Assembly (NCBI GenBank): GCA_030037665.1
Contig: JASHQG010000152.1
Span: 1-47,257, forward strand
From: Acetobacteraceae bacterium
GTDB lineage: Bacteria; Pseudomonadota; Alphaproteobacteria; Acetobacterales; Acetobacteraceae
DNA length: 47,257 bases
Direction: 5' to 3'
The translations under genes and the position numbers were made by a program. The notes below the pieces were generated by a model. That model saw only the letters and a program-made list of their open reading frames with translations. It did no database searches and was not told the DNA's origin. This document shows positions 43,137-45,908 of this stretch, piece after piece. Position 1 is the stretch's first letter, and every line of letters begins with the position of its first letter.

Positions 43137-45908
43137 GTGCCACCTTCAAACGCTAACCCCGTCCGCCTGGAAGGCAGTGAGCGTTCCCATTTGCCCGGCA
43201 CGCGGCGCGTCCGCGCCGCCAATCCGGACGACATCCTGCGCGTCATAGTGATGCTGCGGCCGCGCGGGGATGCGCCGCCACCGCCGGACACGACGCAATG
43301 GGCGAAGCTGCCGATCCGGCAGCGCAGTGCCGCATCGCACCATGCATCGGCCGCGGATTACGGCGCCGCGCGGGCGGATGCTGATGCGGTTGCTGCCTTC
43401 GCGACTGCGCGCGGCCTGACAGTCGTCGAAATCAGCCTGCCACGCCGCATGATCGAGCTATCGGGTACAGTCGCGCAGATCGATCATGCCTTTGGCGTCA
43501 GCCTCGGGGTCTACGAAACGCCGGACGAGACCTATCACGGACACGACGGACCGATCCACCTGCCGCACGACATCGTCAACCTGGTTGCCGCCGTGTTTGG
43601 CCTGGACAATCGCCGCATGGCCTTTCGCGGCGGTGGGCCGGGCGTGACCATCACCCCGGTCACGCCGCCACAGATTGCAAGCCTGTATGGGTTTCCCGCC
43701 ATCCCGCCGGCGATCGCGCACCAGACCATCGGCATATTCGAATTCGGCGGTGGTTACGTGACCGACGCCGCCGGCCATGCGACGGATGCTGACCTGTTCA
43801 TGGCCGGGCTCAATCCGCCGTTGCCCAACGTCAAGATGTTCAACCCGCCCGTCTCGATCCTCGGCGCGCCCAACGCACCGGGCACCGCTGCGCATCCCAA
43901 CGGTGGCGACGGCGAGGTTATCCTCGACATCGACACCGCCGCTTCAGTCGCGGTTGGTGCGACCATCGCCGTCTACTTCGCGCCCTGGTCCGAGGCCGGT
44001 TGGGTCAAAGCAATCCAGACCGCCGCGGTACCCCTGGCCGGCGAGCCGACGCCGTCGGTCGTCTCGATCAGCTGGAATGCTCCCGAAGCGTCATTCAGCG
44101 CAGTCCAGCTCAAAGCCATGAGTCTGGCCTTTCAAGTGGCCACCACCGCCGCCACCAACGCCATCACTTTCCTGGTTTGCTCGATGGACGACGGCACCAA
44201 GGGCGGCGTCCCGGACGGCGCGGCGCATGTCTGGTGGCCTGCGATCGATCCCTGGGTGACCGCTGTCGGCGGTACGACTATTGGCGACATCTCTGGACAT
44301 TCATTCGACGAGATCACCTGGAACGACAACGGCATCACCAGCGGCGGCATCAGCACCGTCACCGATGGCAGTGGCCACTTGGTGTTTCCGCTGCCGTGGT
44401 GGCAGGCCGGCGCCAACGTACCGCCCTCGATAAACAACGGCACGACGCGCGGGCGGGGCATTCCGGATATCGCCGGATACGCCAACGGCTATGCCACACT
44501 CATGTTCGGCAATCCTGCCGGAACCTGGTGGGGTACCAGCGAGGCTGCCCCGTTTTACGCCGGGCTGGTCGCGATCCTGAACGCGACGCTTGGCACCAAT
44601 CTCGGCTACCTCAATCCGCTGCTCTACGCTCTGGCGGAAACGCCCGGCTTCGACATCTTCCACGACATCGACGACGGCCGTAACAACTCCGACACCTTTA
44701 CGCTGCCGCCACCGAATCCCCCGACCAAAATCACCACGCCCGGCTACGTCTCCATCAAAGGATGGGACGCGTGCACGGGATGGGGCAGCATCAGGGGCAA
44801 CCGGCTGCTGGGGGCGCTGGCGTCCCTGCCGATTGTCGCCACTGCCATTGCCAGTGGCGGCAGGTTCGGCAATGCCTGCGTGGCATCGTTCGTCGATGAG
44901 ATCCTGACCATCAACAACAGCGGCTTCGGACTGCTGGCGATCTCCAACATCACATCGTCCTCGACGGACTTCCTGGTGCCCAGTATCAGTGCCTATCCGC
45001 TGCTGGTCAGTGTTGGCGGTTCGATCGACGTGGTGATCCGCTTCCAGCCGGTCAGCGCCGGATCGAAGACCGCCACAATCAAGATCTTCAGCAACGATGC
45101 GGCCAGTCCTCACAGCATTACCGTCTCCGGCGACGCGGTGACGCCACGGCTGGATCTGGTGATCGCCGACAAGGGCGATTTCGGAGCTTGCTGTGCTGGG
45201 AGCTTCGTCGACCGGCCGCTGGTTCTGAGCAACGGCGGAAAGTGCCCGCTGTCGATCACCGACATCACCGCCTCCTCGGCCGATTTCGTCGTGCCGGAGG
45301 TGCTGTCCTATCCGCTCTCTATCGCGCCTGGCGCCGCGCTGTCGCTGCCGATCCGGTTCGCCCCGACCAGCCTGGGCAGCAAATCCGCGATTCTGACAGT
45401 GACCAGCAACGATCCGGCGAGCCCGCACAGGATCGACGTCTCCGGCGATGCGCCGCCCGGCAAGCTGAGTGTCACCGGCACGACCATTTTCGGCGGTGTG
45501 AAGTGCTGCACCAGCGAGCAACGTACCGTGTCGCTGTGCAACTCTGGCGGCTGCGAACTGCACGTCTCCGAGGTCACGCTGCGGCGCCAGCACCACGCGT
45601 ACCGTCTGATCAACAACCCGTTCCCGGCAACGCTGCGACCGGGCTCGTGCCTGAGCGTTGTGGTACAGTATCGTGCAATTGAGAAGGAACCCAGGGCGTG
45701 CGAGCTGGTGATCCATAGCGACGACCCGAACGCGCCGGTCACCTGCCTGGACGTCGTCGCGCACACTATCTGGGACTGCTGCTGCGGATGCTGCGACGAG
45801 CAAGGGAAGTCATGCTGCGGCAAGCGATCGAAGGAGTGCTGCAAGGAGCATCGCCGCGAGTGCTGCGACGAAGACCGGAACGAGAAGGCGGATGCTTACG
45901 CCATGTAG
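43137..45908 (+). CDS. Sedolisin (peptidase S53, kumamolisin-like) fused to three beta-sandwich repeats and a Cys-rich tail
   Basis: Domain evidence:
- An N-terminal pro-kumamolisin activation-domain pattern starts at residue ~8.
- Catalytic signatures: GEVILDID (Glu/Asp), WWGTSEAAPFYAGLVAIL (Ser) and the Ca-site GWDACTGWGS.
- Three ~105-aa repeats span aa 564-878.
- The tail is DCCCGCC...ECCDEDRNEK.

A strong SD (AAGGAGG) lies 5 nt before the GTG. An in-frame stop at 43092-43094 excludes a longer N-terminus. No signal peptide is visible. Confidence 0.85.
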   Translation: MPPSNANPVRLEGSERSHLPGTRRVRAANPDDILRVIVMLRPRGDAPPPPDTTQWAKLPIRQRSAASHHASAADYGAARADADAVAAFATARGLTVVEISLPRRMIELSGTVAQIDHAFGVSLGVYETPDETYHGHDGPIHLPHDIVNLVAAVFGLDNRRMAFRGGGPGVTITPVTPPQIASLYGFPAIPPAIAHQTIGIFEFGGGYVTDAAGHATDADLFMAGLNPPLPNVKMFNPPVSILGAPNAPGTAAHPNGGDGEVILDIDTAASVAVGATIAVYFAPWSEAGWVKAIQTAAVPLAGEPTPSVVSISWNAPEASFSAVQLKAMSLAFQVATTAATNAITFLVCSMDDGTKGGVPDGAAHVWWPAIDPWVTAVGGTTIGDISGHSFDEITWNDNGITSGGISTVTDGSGHLVFPLPWWQAGANVPPSINNGTTRGRGIPDIAGYANGYATLMFGNPAGTWWGTSEAAPFYAGLVAILNATLGTNLGYLNPLLYALAETPGFDIFHDIDDGRNNSDTFTLPPPNPPTKITTPGYVSIKGWDACTGWGSIRGNRLLGALASLPIVATAIASGGRFGNACVASFVDEILTINNSGFGLLAISNITSSSTDFLVPSISAYPLLVSVGGSIDVVIRFQPVSAGSKTATIKIFSNDAASPHSITVSGDAVTPRLDLVIADKGDFGACCAGSFVDRPLVLSNGGKCPLSITDITASSADFVVPEVLSYPLSIAPGAALSLPIRFAPTSLGSKSAILTVTSNDPASPHRIDVSGDAPPGKLSVTGTTIFGGVKCCTSEQRTVSLCNSGGCELHVSEVTLRRQHHAYRLINNPFPATLRPGSCLSVVVQYRAIEKEPRACELVIHSDDPNAPVTCLDVVAHTIWDCCCGCCDEQGKSCCGKRSKECCKEHRRECCDEDRNEKADAYAM
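44826..45770 (+). repeat. Three tandem ~105-aa protein-domain repeats (choice-of-anchor-D / ASH-Hydin-like beta-sandwich) inside the S53 gene
   Basis: Units lie at 44826-45140, 45141-45452 and 45453-45770. They share the pattern FG-x-C/V-x-S-x...L-x-N-x-G...L-x-I-x-x-I...DF-x-VP...P-x-x-I/V-x-x-G...F-x-P...G-S-K-x-A-x-L/I-x-I/V-x-SND-x-x-SPH-x-I-x-VSGDA. The third unit is the most diverged. Confidence 0.7.
45789..45884 (+). repeat. 24-nt periodic repeat x4 (TGCTGC + 18 nt) encoding CC-x6
   Basis: Units: tgctgcgacgagcaagggaagtca / tgctgcggcaagcgatcgaaggag / tgctgcaaggagcatcgccgcgag / tgctgcgacgaagaccggaacgag. They are preceded by TGC TGC TGC GGA at 45777-45788. Confidence 0.85.

What the first reader, a model, noticed from the sequence alone, without database searches (positions are those of the whole stretch)
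43137..45908. Signal-peptide-less sedolisin fused to three choice-of-anchor-D-like domains: an unusual protease architecture
The 923-aa ORF starts at a GTG with a strong AAGGAGG SD. An in-frame stop 45 nt upstream fixes the N-terminus. It opens directly into the pro-kumamolisin activation domain, with no hydrophobic signal sequence.

The S53 catalytic signatures are intact (GEVILDID, GTSEAAP, GWDACTGWG). After the protease come three tandem ~105-aa beta-sandwich repeats, each ending SND-x-x-SPH-x-I-x-VSGDA. This pattern resembles the choice-of-anchor-D / ASH-type domains normally found on secreted, surface-anchored proteins.

A secretion-associated domain set without a visible export signal, ending in a cysteine tail, does not fit the usual picture of sedolisins as secreted acid proteases. 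It lies in a decayed, IS-scarred islet, so it is likely accessory.
Basis: partly seen in the sequence, partly recalled or inferred. Interest (0 to 1): 0.65.

Follow-up and report, generated by a model that had tools for sequence, protein, structure and literature searches.

The report
Leaderless acid protease with cysteine-rich tail
This is an intact gene for a kumamolisin-type acid protease joined to three Ig-like domains and a cysteine-packed tail; the same tail module sits on at least seven other enzyme types in many soil bacteria, none of them has a classical export signal, and nobody has studied it.

Summary
ORF 43137-45908 (+) encodes a 923-aa protein: pro-kumamolisin prodomain, an S53 catalytic domain, three choice-of-anchor-D/ASH Ig-like domains and a 43-aa disordered tail with 11 Cys. 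The catalytic residues E260, D264, D351 and S468 are intact.

The interpretation needs two corrections.
- Lacking a signal peptide is not odd for this branch of S53. None of 109 nearest homologues has one by a hydrophobicity heuristic, and neither does the pro-kumamolisin prototype.
- The architecture is recurrent: about 50 protein clusters and 36 of 80 sampled species genomes. It is only ever named "hypothetical" or "choice-of-anchor D".

The new finding is that the C-terminal cassette is portable. It consists of Ig domains, a conserved Cys-bearing last domain and a poly-Cys acidic tail. It is also fused to S8, M14, HExxH, sialidase-like, Sortilin/BNR and Kelch-like heads in at least 11 phyla. 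None has a leader, whereas 71% of ordinary choice-of-anchor-D proteins do (p = 1e-21).

No partner gene is conserved nearby. The gene is under purifying selection (dN/dS 0.11-0.29) and moves horizontally.

Best guess: an acid-activated zymogen released without Sec, with the cassette as a localisation or retention module. This is unproven.

The parts
43092..43094 (+). In-frame TAA stop 45 nt upstream of the start; it fixes the N-terminus.
   Evidence: Read directly.
43125..43131 (+). Shine-Dalgarno AAGGAGG, 5 nt before the GTG start.
43137..45908 (+). Complete CDS of 923 aa plus a TAG stop: leaderless pro-sedolisin with the C-terminal cassette.
   Evidence: dN/dS is 0.11-0.29 against four homologues.
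43137..43646 (+). Prodomain (aa 1-170) of pro-kumamolisin activation type. The N-terminal motif MP.S..N.V.L.GSER is conserved and there is no signal peptide.
   Evidence: Pfam PF09286 covers aa 21-158. The AF2 model matches 1t1e at TMt 0.84. The linker at aa 168-171 has low pLDDT. N-termini are listed.
43647..44825 (+). S53 catalytic domain (aa 171-563). Catalytic residues: E260 (43914-43916), D264 (43926-43928), oxyanion D351 (44187-44189), nucleophile S468 (44538-44540). D510/I511 and D544..G548..G550 align with the segments I recall as kumamolisin's Ca2+ site.
   Evidence: Alignment to kumamolisin chains. All four catalytic residues are invariant in 44 sequences.
44832..45128 (+). Ig-like domain D1 (aa 566-664), choice-of-anchor D/ASH type, with invariant C581.
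45129..45449 (+). Ig-like domain D2 (aa 665-771), choice-of-anchor D/ASH type. C703 is invariant and C686 nearly so.
45450..45776 (+). Ig-like domain D3 (aa 772-880), a specialised terminal ASH/PapD-like beta-sandwich. It carries conserved Cys (790/791, 801, 806, 838, 855) and the signature RLINNPFPATL.PGSCL. It keeps 50-60% identity across phyla.
   Evidence: AF2 gives pLDDT 90-98. The fold search matches OCRL/HYDIN ASH domains and the Ig domains of VesC and VesB.
45777..45905 (+). Poly-Cys tail (aa 881-923): 11 Cys among Lys/Arg/Glu/Asp, with an acidic end, predicted disordered.
   Evidence: pLDDT is 31-42. Across 82 ORFs the tail has median length 46 aa and median 10 Cys, and 79/82 have at least 6 Cys. 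No Pfam family matches.
46294..46679 (+). IS200/IS605-family tnpA pseudogene with one internal stop and one frameshift. It lies in a window-specific segment (46093-46748) absent from the 92%-identical locus L009. It is context, not part of the gene.
   Evidence: The frameshift-joined translation hits Pfam Y1_Tnp at E 2.7e-19. blastn against L009 is.

Best explanation
The gene encodes a functional, horizontally mobile, kumamolisin-type pro-sedolisin carrying a conserved C-terminal cassette. The cassette has two ordinary choice-of-anchor-D/ASH Ig-like domains, a specialised Cys-bearing third Ig-like domain (D3) and a disordered poly-Cys, acidic-ended tail.

Shown here:
- The prodomain and the catalytic Glu-Asp-Ser plus oxyanion Asp are intact and under purifying selection.
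- There is no Sec/Tat-type leader by my heuristic, and this holds for the whole kumamolisin clade.
- The cassette is a portable module fused to at least seven other hydrolase-like heads in at least 11 phyla, always at the extreme C-terminus and always on leaderless proteins.
- No partner gene is linked.

Inferred mechanism:
1. The protein is made as an inactive zymogen. The prodomain occupies the active site, as in pro-kumamolisin 1T1E.
2. It stays latent at cytoplasmic pH.
3. It leaves the cell by a Sec-independent route, as kumamolisin itself must.
4. It auto-processes and works as an endopeptidase in the acidic surroundings of its host. The host is Acetobacteraceae-like, and family members come largely from peat and acid-soil metagenome-assembled genomes.
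5. The Ig array plus D3 and the Cys tail act as the localisation or retention device. They would tether the enzyme to the cell surface, matrix or particles through thiol, metal or disulfide chemistry.

In function the cassette would be analogous to the C-terminal Ig domain plus sorting tag of VesB-type proteases or type IX secretion (T9SS) cargo.
For: Identity and activity:
- Domain and structure matches.
- Purifying selection in every region: whole-gene dN/dS 0.11-0.29, tail 0.25-0.59.

Leaderless clade:
- By a hydrophobicity heuristic, 0/44 cassette-bearing and 0/65 cassette-free homologues have a signal-like N-terminus, against 80/113 generic choice-of-anchor-D proteins. Fisher p = 1e-21 for generic versus Cys-tail proteins.
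- Pro-kumamolisin 1t1e starts MSDMEKPWKEEEK.

Portable cassette:
- 178 species genomes matched and 80 were examined. Heads: 36 S53, 19 Sortilin/BNR, 9 sialidase-like, 4 S8, 3 HExxH, 1 M14. Kelch/GlxA-like heads also occur.
- D3 is the last Ig domain in 81/82 ORFs, 79/82 tails have at least 6 Cys, and 75/82 end acidic.

Extracellular-type parts:
- All heads are enzyme classes that are normally extracellular.
- A sister family has the same heads and a D3-like domain, but with signal peptides and a different C-terminal domain.
- The nearest bacterial structural matches of D3 are the Ig domains of the secreted proteases VesC and VesB.

Acid niche:
- The neighbouring gene's closest named relatives are Acetobacteraceae.
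- Many loci come from SPRUCE peat-bog and palsa MAGs.
- S53 is linked to acidophily in PMC6411800.
Against: - No export signal or machinery was identified. No neighbour is conserved in 36 S53 loci or 80 loci overall.
- The taxa span Gram-negative, Gram-positive and mycolate envelopes plus one archaeal MAG, so a single dedicated exporter is hard to picture.
- A 23%-Cys tail and unpaired invariant cysteines (C581 in D1) look more like a reduced, metal-binding cytoplasmic segment than an oxidised extracellular one.
- Eukaryotic ASH domains, the best structural matches, are cytosolic.
- That kumamolisin is extracellular despite lacking a leader rests on my recollection of the original purification papers. 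I did not find it stated in a paper I could read.
- SignalP and TatP were not available. My signal test is a hydrophobicity heuristic.
Confidence: 0.45

Rival explanations
1. The protein is a cytoplasmic latent hydrolase. It never leaves intact cells. The poly-Cys tail is a metallothionein-like metal (Zn/Cu/Cd) or redox-sensing segment, and the ASH-type Ig domains mediate intracellular protein-protein contacts. The enzyme would act inside the cell, for instance under acid or metal stress or in dormancy, or only after cell death as a posthumous public good.
For: - All roughly 130 cassette proteins examined lack a leader.
- The tail is 23% Cys with CC, CxC and CxxC spacing, no transmembrane-like segment, and predicted disorder.
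- Invariant unpaired cysteines occur in the Ig domains.
- There are no linked secretion genes.
- The closest folds, ASH/MSP domains, are cytosolic in eukaryotes.
Against: - Every head type (S53, S8 with a pro-region, M14, sialidase-like, Sortilin/BNR glycosidase-like, Kelch/GlxA-like) normally works outside the cell.
- S53 chemistry needs acid pH.
- A sister family with the same heads is Sec-exported.
- 71% of ordinary choice-of-anchor-D proteins carry signal peptides.
- The tail matches no metallothionein family.
Confidence: 0.3
2. D3 plus the poly-Cys tail is a dedicated, previously unrecognised C-terminal export or sorting signal. An unlinked machine would read it, move fully folded leaderless enzymes out of the cell, and possibly attach them covalently through the cysteines. 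It would be a new counterpart of T9SS C-terminal domains and of the PEP-CTERM and GlyGly-CTERM systems.
For: - It shows the hallmark of a sorting module: one constant C-terminal unit on many unrelated heads, always terminal.
- Leader peptide and Cys tail are perfectly anticorrelated among choice-of-anchor-D proteins.
- D3 is the most conserved part, at 50-60% identity across phyla, which suggests a conserved partner.
- Choice-of-anchor domains were named for preceding alternative anchors (my knowledge of the NCBIfam naming).
Against: - No co-located or co-transferred gene was found in 80 loci.
- The gene transfers alone between phyla: L010 is 90% nt identical and sits in 55.5%-GC flanks. That is hard to reconcile with dependence on a specialised machine.
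- Envelope types are too diverse for one exporter.
Confidence: 0.17
3. The gene is a decaying or non-functional accessory remnant in an IS-scarred islet, and its odd features (no leader, Cys tail) are degeneration.
For: An IS200-like pseudogene lies 390 bp downstream. About 800 bp of non-coding DNA with a GC dip lies upstream. Several homologues in nanopore MAGs are split by frameshifts.
Against: - The 923-codon ORF is intact with a strong Shine-Dalgarno sequence.
- All catalytic residues are invariant.
- dN/dS is 0.11-0.29 in every region.
- The same N-terminus and tail recur in more than 100 homologues.
Confidence: 0.03

Closest known systems
Kumamolisin / kumamolisin-As (MEROPS S53; PDB 1T1E, 1GT9, 1SIO)
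   Same: The prodomain and catalytic domain are homologous: 36-41% identity and TMt 0.84. The Glu-Asp-Ser triad and oxyanion Asp are shared. D510/I511 and the GWD.CTG.G loop align with the kumamolisin segments I recall as its Ca2+ ligands. The precursor N-terminus is likewise leaderless.
   Different: Kumamolisin ends after the catalytic domain (552 aa). The window protein adds 360 aa: three Ig-like domains and a poly-Cys tail. It also has insertions in the catalytic domain (aa ~395-420 and ~515-535, lower pLDDT). The host is a mesophilic Acetobacteraceae-like bacterium, not a thermoacidophilic Bacillus-group bacterium.
Vibrio cholerae VesB / VesC (serine protease + C-terminal Ig-like domain; VesB has a GlyGly-CTERM/rhombosortase tag)
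   Same: The design is a protease head followed by a PapD/ASH-like Ig domain and a short C-terminal tag. D3 matches the VesC (6bqm, E 4e-7) and VesB (4lk4) Ig domains. Pfam names the shared fold HYDIN_VesB_CFA65-like_Ig.
   Different: VesB and VesC have S1 trypsin-like heads, an N-terminal Sec signal, T2SS export, and (in VesB) a hydrophobic GlyGly-CTERM anchor. Here the head is S53, there is no leader, there are three Ig domains, and the tag is hydrophilic and poly-Cys with no transmembrane-like segment.
Ordinary choice-of-anchor D (NF012200) repeat proteins with T9SS, PEP-CTERM or similar sorting domains
   Same: The Ig-like repeat family is the same: 118.9 bits against a cutoff of 45.
   Different: 71% of sampled generic members have signal peptides, and many end in a T9SS-type C-terminal domain (…NYPNPFNPET…). 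The Cys-tail subgroup has neither. Its last repeat is a distinct, far more conserved variant.
T9SS C-terminal-domain cargo (gingipains, CPG70 and others) - functional analogy only
   Same: One conserved C-terminal beta-sandwich is appended to many different hydrolase heads, including proteases, an M14 carboxypeptidase and sialidase-like propellers.
   Different: T9SS cargo need a Sec leader and occur in Bacteroidota and allies. No T9SS C-terminal-domain model hit, and the taxa here are mostly Proteobacteria, Acidobacteriota and Actinomycetota.
Bacterial metallothioneins (SmtA/BmtA, MymT) - for the tail only
   Same: Short, disordered, 20-25% Cys with CC, CxC and CxxC spacing, on a protein with no export signal.
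   Different: There is no sequence-family match. The tail is an appendage of a 900-aa enzyme rather than a free small protein. Metal binding is untested.

Membership tests
MEROPS S53 (sedolisin), kumamolisin subfamily | Catalytic Ser-Glu-Asp triad in conserved motifs | tested here: met
   E260 and D264 (GEVILDID) and S468 (GTSEAAP) align to kumamolisin E78, D82 and S278 (numbering from memory). All are invariant in 44 homologues.
MEROPS S53 (sedolisin), kumamolisin subfamily | Oxyanion-hole Asp (D164 in kumamolisin, numbering from memory) | tested here: met
   D351 (SMDDG) aligns to the AGDSG Asp and is invariant.
MEROPS S53 (sedolisin), kumamolisin subfamily | N-terminal pro-kumamolisin activation domain and overall pro-enzyme fold | tested here: met
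   PF09286 scores E 5e-12, above the gathering score. The AF2 model matches 1t1e at TMt 0.84, E 3.6e-38.
MEROPS S53 (sedolisin), kumamolisin subfamily | Ca2+-binding Asp/Gly loop | tested here: inconclusive
   D510/I511 and D544, G548 and G550 align with kumamolisin's FHDIT and GWDPCTGLG segments and are invariant or nearly so. That these segments hold the Ca2+ ligands is my recollection, not a tool result. Metal binding was not tested.
MEROPS S53 (sedolisin), kumamolisin subfamily | Acid-triggered autoprocessing and an acidic pH optimum | not testable with these tools
   Needs expression and assay.
Choice-of-anchor D domain proteins (NCBIfam NF012200) | HMM score above the curated cutoff | tested here: met
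   118.9 bits against a cutoff of 45, in 3 stretches.
Choice-of-anchor D domain proteins (NCBIfam NF012200) | N-terminal signal peptide plus a recognised C-terminal sorting or anchor domain, as in typical members | tested here: not met
   No signal-like N-terminus in 0/56 Cys-tail proteins, against 80/113 generic members. No NCBIfam or Pfam sorting-domain hit and no transmembrane-like tail segment.
VesB-type protease (S1 + Ig + GlyGly-CTERM) | C-terminal PapD/ASH-like Ig domain after the protease | tested here: met
   Foldseek matches 6bqm at E 4e-7 and 4lk4 at E 2.6e-5. Pfam PF22544 also hits.
VesB-type protease (S1 + Ig + GlyGly-CTERM) | Trypsin-like S1 head, Sec leader and GlyGly-CTERM tag | tested here: not met
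   The head is S53, there is no leader, and the tail is hydrophilic and poly-Cys.
T9SS cargo | T9SS C-terminal sorting domain model, Sec leader, and a Bacteroidota-type host | tested here: not met
   No such NCBIfam or Pfam hit. The proteins are leaderless. The hosts are mostly other phyla.
Type I secretion substrates | Leaderless with a C-terminal signal, usually RTX repeats, a linked ABC/MFP exporter, and Gram-negative hosts only | tested here: not met
   No RTX or other repeats were found and no linked ABC/MFP pair. The family also occurs in Actinomycetota, Chloroflexia and an archaeal MAG. From my knowledge, T1SS substrates are typically Cys-poor.
Bacterial metallothionein (tail only) | Membership of a metallothionein sequence family, and metal binding | tested here: not met
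   No Pfam hit at E up to 10 for six tails. Only the composition is alike, and metal binding is not testable here.
Known anti-phage defence proteins (PADLOC) | Match to a defence-system model | tested here: not met
   No hits for the window protein or for three other cassette proteins. No relatives were found on viral contigs.

The most novel reading that the evidence does not exclude
The terminal Ig-like domain D3 plus the poly-Cys acidic tail is a previously unrecognised, Sec-independent C-terminal export, anchoring or compartment-targeting signal. It is shared by at least eight hydrolase families in at least 11 prokaryotic phyla. The window's sedolisin is one cargo of that unknown pathway.
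Probability: 0.18. Interest if true: 0.85.

Novelty: new variant of a known kind. Interest (0 to 1): 0.6.

Why it matters
The protease itself is a recognisable kumamolisin relative, so it is not new on its own. What matters is the pattern it belongs to.

A single, highly conserved C-terminal cassette marks a large set of hydrolases: four protease clans, sialidase-like and glycosidase-like propellers, and Kelch/GlxA-like heads. They occur in soil and peat bacteria of many phyla. All look extracellular, and none has a classical export signal.

- If the cassette directs export or anchoring, it is a new protein-sorting route. It might also bear on how leaderless kumamolisin-type enzymes leave the cell, a question I did not find answered in the papers I could read.
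- If these enzymes are cytoplasmic, that overturns the assumption that S53, M14 and sialidase-like enzymes with Ig arrays are exoenzymes. Genome-based estimates of microbial extracellular protein degradation in acid soils would be affected, because signal-peptide filters silently drop these genes.

The family also offers acid-active proteases with a built-in thiol or metal handle, which could interest enzyme engineers.

Tried and rejected
- **Linked partner gene (secretion, maturation, chaperone).** Gene tables around six homologues and all-vs-all ORF clustering in 80 loci and in the 36 S53 loci found nothing conserved. Only ubiquitous ABC ATPases and synteny between close relatives appeared.
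- **Phage or mobile-element cargo.** No relative was found in 2.9 M viral contigs.
- **Defence system.** No PADLOC hit.
- **Known family for the tail.** No Pfam hit at E up to 10.
- **Recognised sorting domain.** NCBIfam and Pfam report only choice_anch_D/ASH-type domains.
- **Literature.** I searched for leaderless kumamolisin, choice-of-anchor D, Cys-rich tails and intracellular sedolisins. Nothing bore on this architecture. Tsuruoka 2003 could not be retrieved by DOI. The R. etli secretome paper lists a hypothetical protein with a serine-carboxyl peptidase domain in stationary-phase supernatant, without enough detail to link it.
- **First signal-peptide heuristic.** It was too lax and flagged beta-strands. 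I replaced it with a stricter one calibrated on generic choice-of-anchor-D proteins.
- **Compositional island.** Gene GC equals the rest of the window, so this is not a recent arrival here.
- **Exact-sequence look-up of the window protein.** Not on record with either a V or an M start.
- **D3+tail profile search of the 5.8-billion-protein set.** It returned mostly short fragments named 'hypothetical' and added no annotation.
- **Promoter and terminator scan.** Nothing above chance.

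
Full report
**1. The observation**

The ORF is exactly as described: 43137-45908 on the + strand, 923 codons, GTG start. AAGGAGG lies at 43125-43131 and an in-frame TAA at 43092-43094.

Sequence and profile matches:
- Pfam finds the pro-kumamolisin activation domain at aa 21-158, and HYDIN/VesB-like Ig, ASH and DUF1573 domains in the C-terminal third.
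- NCBIfam finds three choice-of-anchor D stretches, 118.9 bits against a cutoff of 45.
- Against PDB sequences the best match is pro-kumamolisin 1t1e, E 3.7e-75 over aa 31-562.
- In that alignment E260/D264 (GEVILDID), D351 (SMDDG) and S468 (GTSEAAP) fall on the kumamolisin catalytic Glu, Asp, oxyanion Asp and Ser.

Only the first two repeats end in SND..SPH.I.VSGDA. The third is a divergent variant with extra cysteines. The last 43 residues hold 11 Cys.

**2. Structure**

I built an AlphaFold2 model on a 44-sequence alignment (mean pLDDT 83).
- The pro and catalytic domains superpose on 1t1e at TMt 0.84.
- They are followed by three confident beta-sandwiches and a tail with pLDDT 31-42.
- Modelled alone, the third domain (D3) has pLDDT 90-98.
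- Its nearest folds are ASH/PapD-like domains: OCRL, HYDIN, CEP192 and ciliary central-pair proteins.
- Among bacterial proteins the nearest are the C-terminal Ig domains of the secreted Vibrio proteases VesC and VesB.

**3. Is the missing signal peptide unusual? No, not for this clade**

All 120 nearest homologues start directly with a motif of the form M..(I)P..Y..L.GSER. This includes stand-alone ~540-aa S53 enzymes and ones with other C-terminal domains. None has a hydrophobic segment before the prodomain.

I calibrated a stricter heuristic: a 12-residue window with mean hydropathy of at least 2.0, uncharged, preceded by K/R.

| Group | Signal-like N-terminus |
|---|---|
| S53 + cassette | 0/44 |
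| Other kumamolisin-like S53 | 0/65 |
| Generic choice-of-anchor D proteins | 80/113 |

The deposited 552-residue pro-kumamolisin chain begins MSDMEKPWKEEEKREVLAGHARRQ. I recall that kumamolisin was purified from culture filtrate and that 552 aa is the full ORF. I could not retrieve a paper stating this. SignalP and TatP were not available.

**4. Is the architecture rare? No**

About 50 protein clusters at 36-95% identity share the full-length architecture. One, from Mycobacterium sp. OTB74, is named 'choice-of-anchor D domain-containing protein'. The rest are 'hypothetical' or 'kumamolisin'.

E260, D264, D351 and S468 are invariant across 44 of them. The Cys-rich tail is a conserved compositional feature: 6-14 Cys in the last 48 residues in all but one of the 44 aligned sequences.

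**5.

I scanned one genome per species (GTDB) with a profile of D3 plus tail. It found relatives in 178 genomes, and 80 loci were returned.

Taxa represented:
- Acidobacteriota
- Alpha-, Beta-, Gamma- and Deltaproteobacteria/Desulfobacterales
- Actinomycetota
- Nitrospirales
- Verrucomicrobiota
- Gemmatimonadaceae
- Chloroflexia
- Tepidisphaeraceae
- Abditibacteriaceae
- one Methanosarcinales MAG

Cultured strains include Nitrosospira briensis Nsp8, Nitrosovibrio Nv4 and Nv6, Paraburkholderia sp. GAS41, Polaromonas sp. C04 and Rhizobium sp. RAF56.

Only 36 of the 80 loci have an S53 head. The others are:

| Head | Loci |
|---|---|
| ~700-aa Sortilin/BNR propeller | 19 |
| BNR sialidase-like propellers | 9 |
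| S8 subtilase | 4 |
| ~800-aa HExxH head | 3 |
| M14 carboxypeptidase | 1 |

An exhaustive profile search of 1.8 billion representatives added Kelch/GlxA-like heads and further S8 examples.

Positional and compositional constraints across 82 ORFs:
- D3 is the last Ig domain in 81.
- The tail has median length 46 aa and a median of 10 Cys (23%).
- 79 tails have at least 6 Cys.
- 75 end acidic.
- None has a transmembrane-like segment.

None of these proteins has a leader. The count is 0/12 representatives and 1/77 genome ORFs, and the single hit is an internal false positive. For generic versus Cys-tail choice-of-anchor D proteins, Fisher p = 1e-21.

A sister family carries the same kinds of heads and a D3-like domain. 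It has clear signal peptides and a different ~230-aa C-terminal domain instead of the Cys tail (P0241, P0245, P0257, P0221, P0222).

**6. Context and evolution**

No neighbouring gene is conserved. There is no relative on viral contigs and no PADLOC match.

The window:
- It belongs to an Acetobacteraceae-like alphaproteobacterium. The adjacent CoA-transferase is 73-82% identical to Acetobacteraceae MAG proteins.
- The gene sits between a metallophosphoesterase (41744-42331) and leuA (from 47084).
- Locus L009 is 92% identical in DNA and shares this position. It lacks window segment 46093-46748.
- That segment holds an IS200-family tnpA pseudogene. The frameshift-joined translation matches Y1_Tnp at E 2.7e-19.

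Gene GC (64.7%) equals the rest of the window (64.1%). In L010, a MAG labelled Acidobacteriaceae, a 90%-identical copy of 64.7% GC sits in 55.5%-GC flanks. That indicates recent horizontal transfer or a chimeric contig.

dN/dS against four homologues is 0.11-0.29 for the whole gene and below 1 in every region. The tail is at 0.25-0.59. The gene is therefore maintained, not decaying.

**7. Mechanism**

*Shown:*
- an intact, selected pro-sedolisin
- a portable, terminal, highly conserved cassette
- a strict association of the cassette with leaderless proteins
- no linked partner gene

*Inferred, best guess (0.45).* The protein is a latent zymogen at cytoplasmic pH. It leaves the cell by a Sec-independent route, as kumamolisin must. 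It auto-activates in acid surroundings. The cassette localises or retains it through thiol, metal or disulfide chemistry. The arguments are the uniformly extracellular character of all the heads, the Sec-exported sister family, the VesB/VesC precedent, and the acid-soil and peat provenance.

*Main rival (0.30).* The proteins are truly cytoplasmic, with a metallothionein-like tail. Favouring this are the absence of leaders, the very high Cys content, the unpaired invariant Cys, the lack of secretion genes, and the cytosolic nature of eukaryotic ASH domains.

*Most novel reading (about 0.17-0.18).* D3 plus tail is a new dedicated sorting signal read by unlinked machinery.

*Degeneration.* This reading is effectively excluded.

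**8. Verdict**

- Observation: confirmed.
- Interpretation: partly supported. The domain calls are right. 'Unusual because leaderless' is wrong for this clade, and 'unusual architecture' is overstated.

The finding nevertheless opens onto an uncharacterised, widespread superfamily of leaderless hydrolases defined by a poly-Cys-tailed Ig cassette. I rate it as a new variant of a known kind, with moderate-to-good interest.

Noticed in passing
window 46294-46679 (+): IS200/IS605-family tnpA pseudogene with one internal stop and one frameshift, and HUH-like DRAYVFV in place of the expected motif. It lies in a 656-bp segment (46093-46748) that is absent from the 92%-identical locus L009.
   Followed up: yes
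L010:5662-8450 (MAG labelled uncultured Acidobacteriaceae, contig CAWGDP010000001.1): A copy of the gene is 90% nt identical to the window's and has 64.7% GC, but its flanks are 55.5% GC and unrelated. This is either recent cross-phylum transfer or a chimeric contig. The copy is split by a frameshift, which may be a nanopore error.
   Followed up: partly
P0241, P0245, P0257, P0221, P0222: A sister family has the same kinds of heads (S8, Sortilin/BNR, BNR sialidase-like, metalloprotease), choice-of-anchor D domains and a D3-like domain. It has clear signal peptides. In place of the Cys tail it carries a conserved ~230-aa C-terminal domain ending ...VVDF or ...LNVNF.
   Followed up: partly
L029:4417-4947 and 16 other loci: A small Pro/Lys/Asp-rich ORF (~111 aa, e.g. 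...KKPKDPNDPQDPKHSPEPNEPDPYGERPQHNPRGREH...) lies immediately upstream, overlapping by 4-13 nt, of the Sortilin/BNR-headed cassette genes. In L069 it appears fused as an N-terminal extension.
   Followed up: no
L030:5130-5894 and 5 other loci: A ~249-aa ORF of unknown function lies directly upstream (4-nt overlap, same strand) of cassette genes in six loci, among them the sialidase-like-headed gene of L030.
   Followed up: no
L087:1509-1886 and 6 other loci: An ~83-aa predicted two-helix membrane protein (...WIEAGLAAISGLLALITPIFPDWIE...) recurs within about 500 bp of cassette genes in seven loci.
   Followed up: no
L038:1-1969 (-): A second S53 peptidase with a classical hydrophobic N-terminus (...FCLVASATGFAQA) lies a few kb from the leaderless cassette-bearing one. 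The same genome therefore has both kinds.
   Followed up: no
window 42332-43136: About 800 bp upstream of the gene has no ORF with a family match, and GC dips to 59%. The last ~290 bp (42845-43136) are conserved in L009. No sigma-70-like promoter was found there.
   Followed up: partly
window 46008-46196 (-): A 62-aa ORF (MREAQMEAARVWNDVKDFHLFRRATMRDWPTRDELRQLNKSRLAETAGL...) lies between the protease gene and the IS200 remnant. It was not characterised.
   Followed up: no
window 37633-42331 and 47084-47257: The flanking genes are ordinary housekeeping or metabolic genes. By reading the translations, they are dnaQ-like, coaE-like and aroE-like. By Pfam, they are a family III CoA-transferase, a MaoC dehydratase and a metallophosphoesterase. 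The start of leuA follows. The nearest named relatives of the CoA-transferase are Acetobacteraceae MAGs (73-82% identity).
   Followed up: partly
L013-L089, L049: One cassette protein (Sortilin/BNR head, 1178 aa) is on a contig binned as a Methanosarcinales archaeon. If the binning is right, the cassette crosses domains of life.
   Followed up: no
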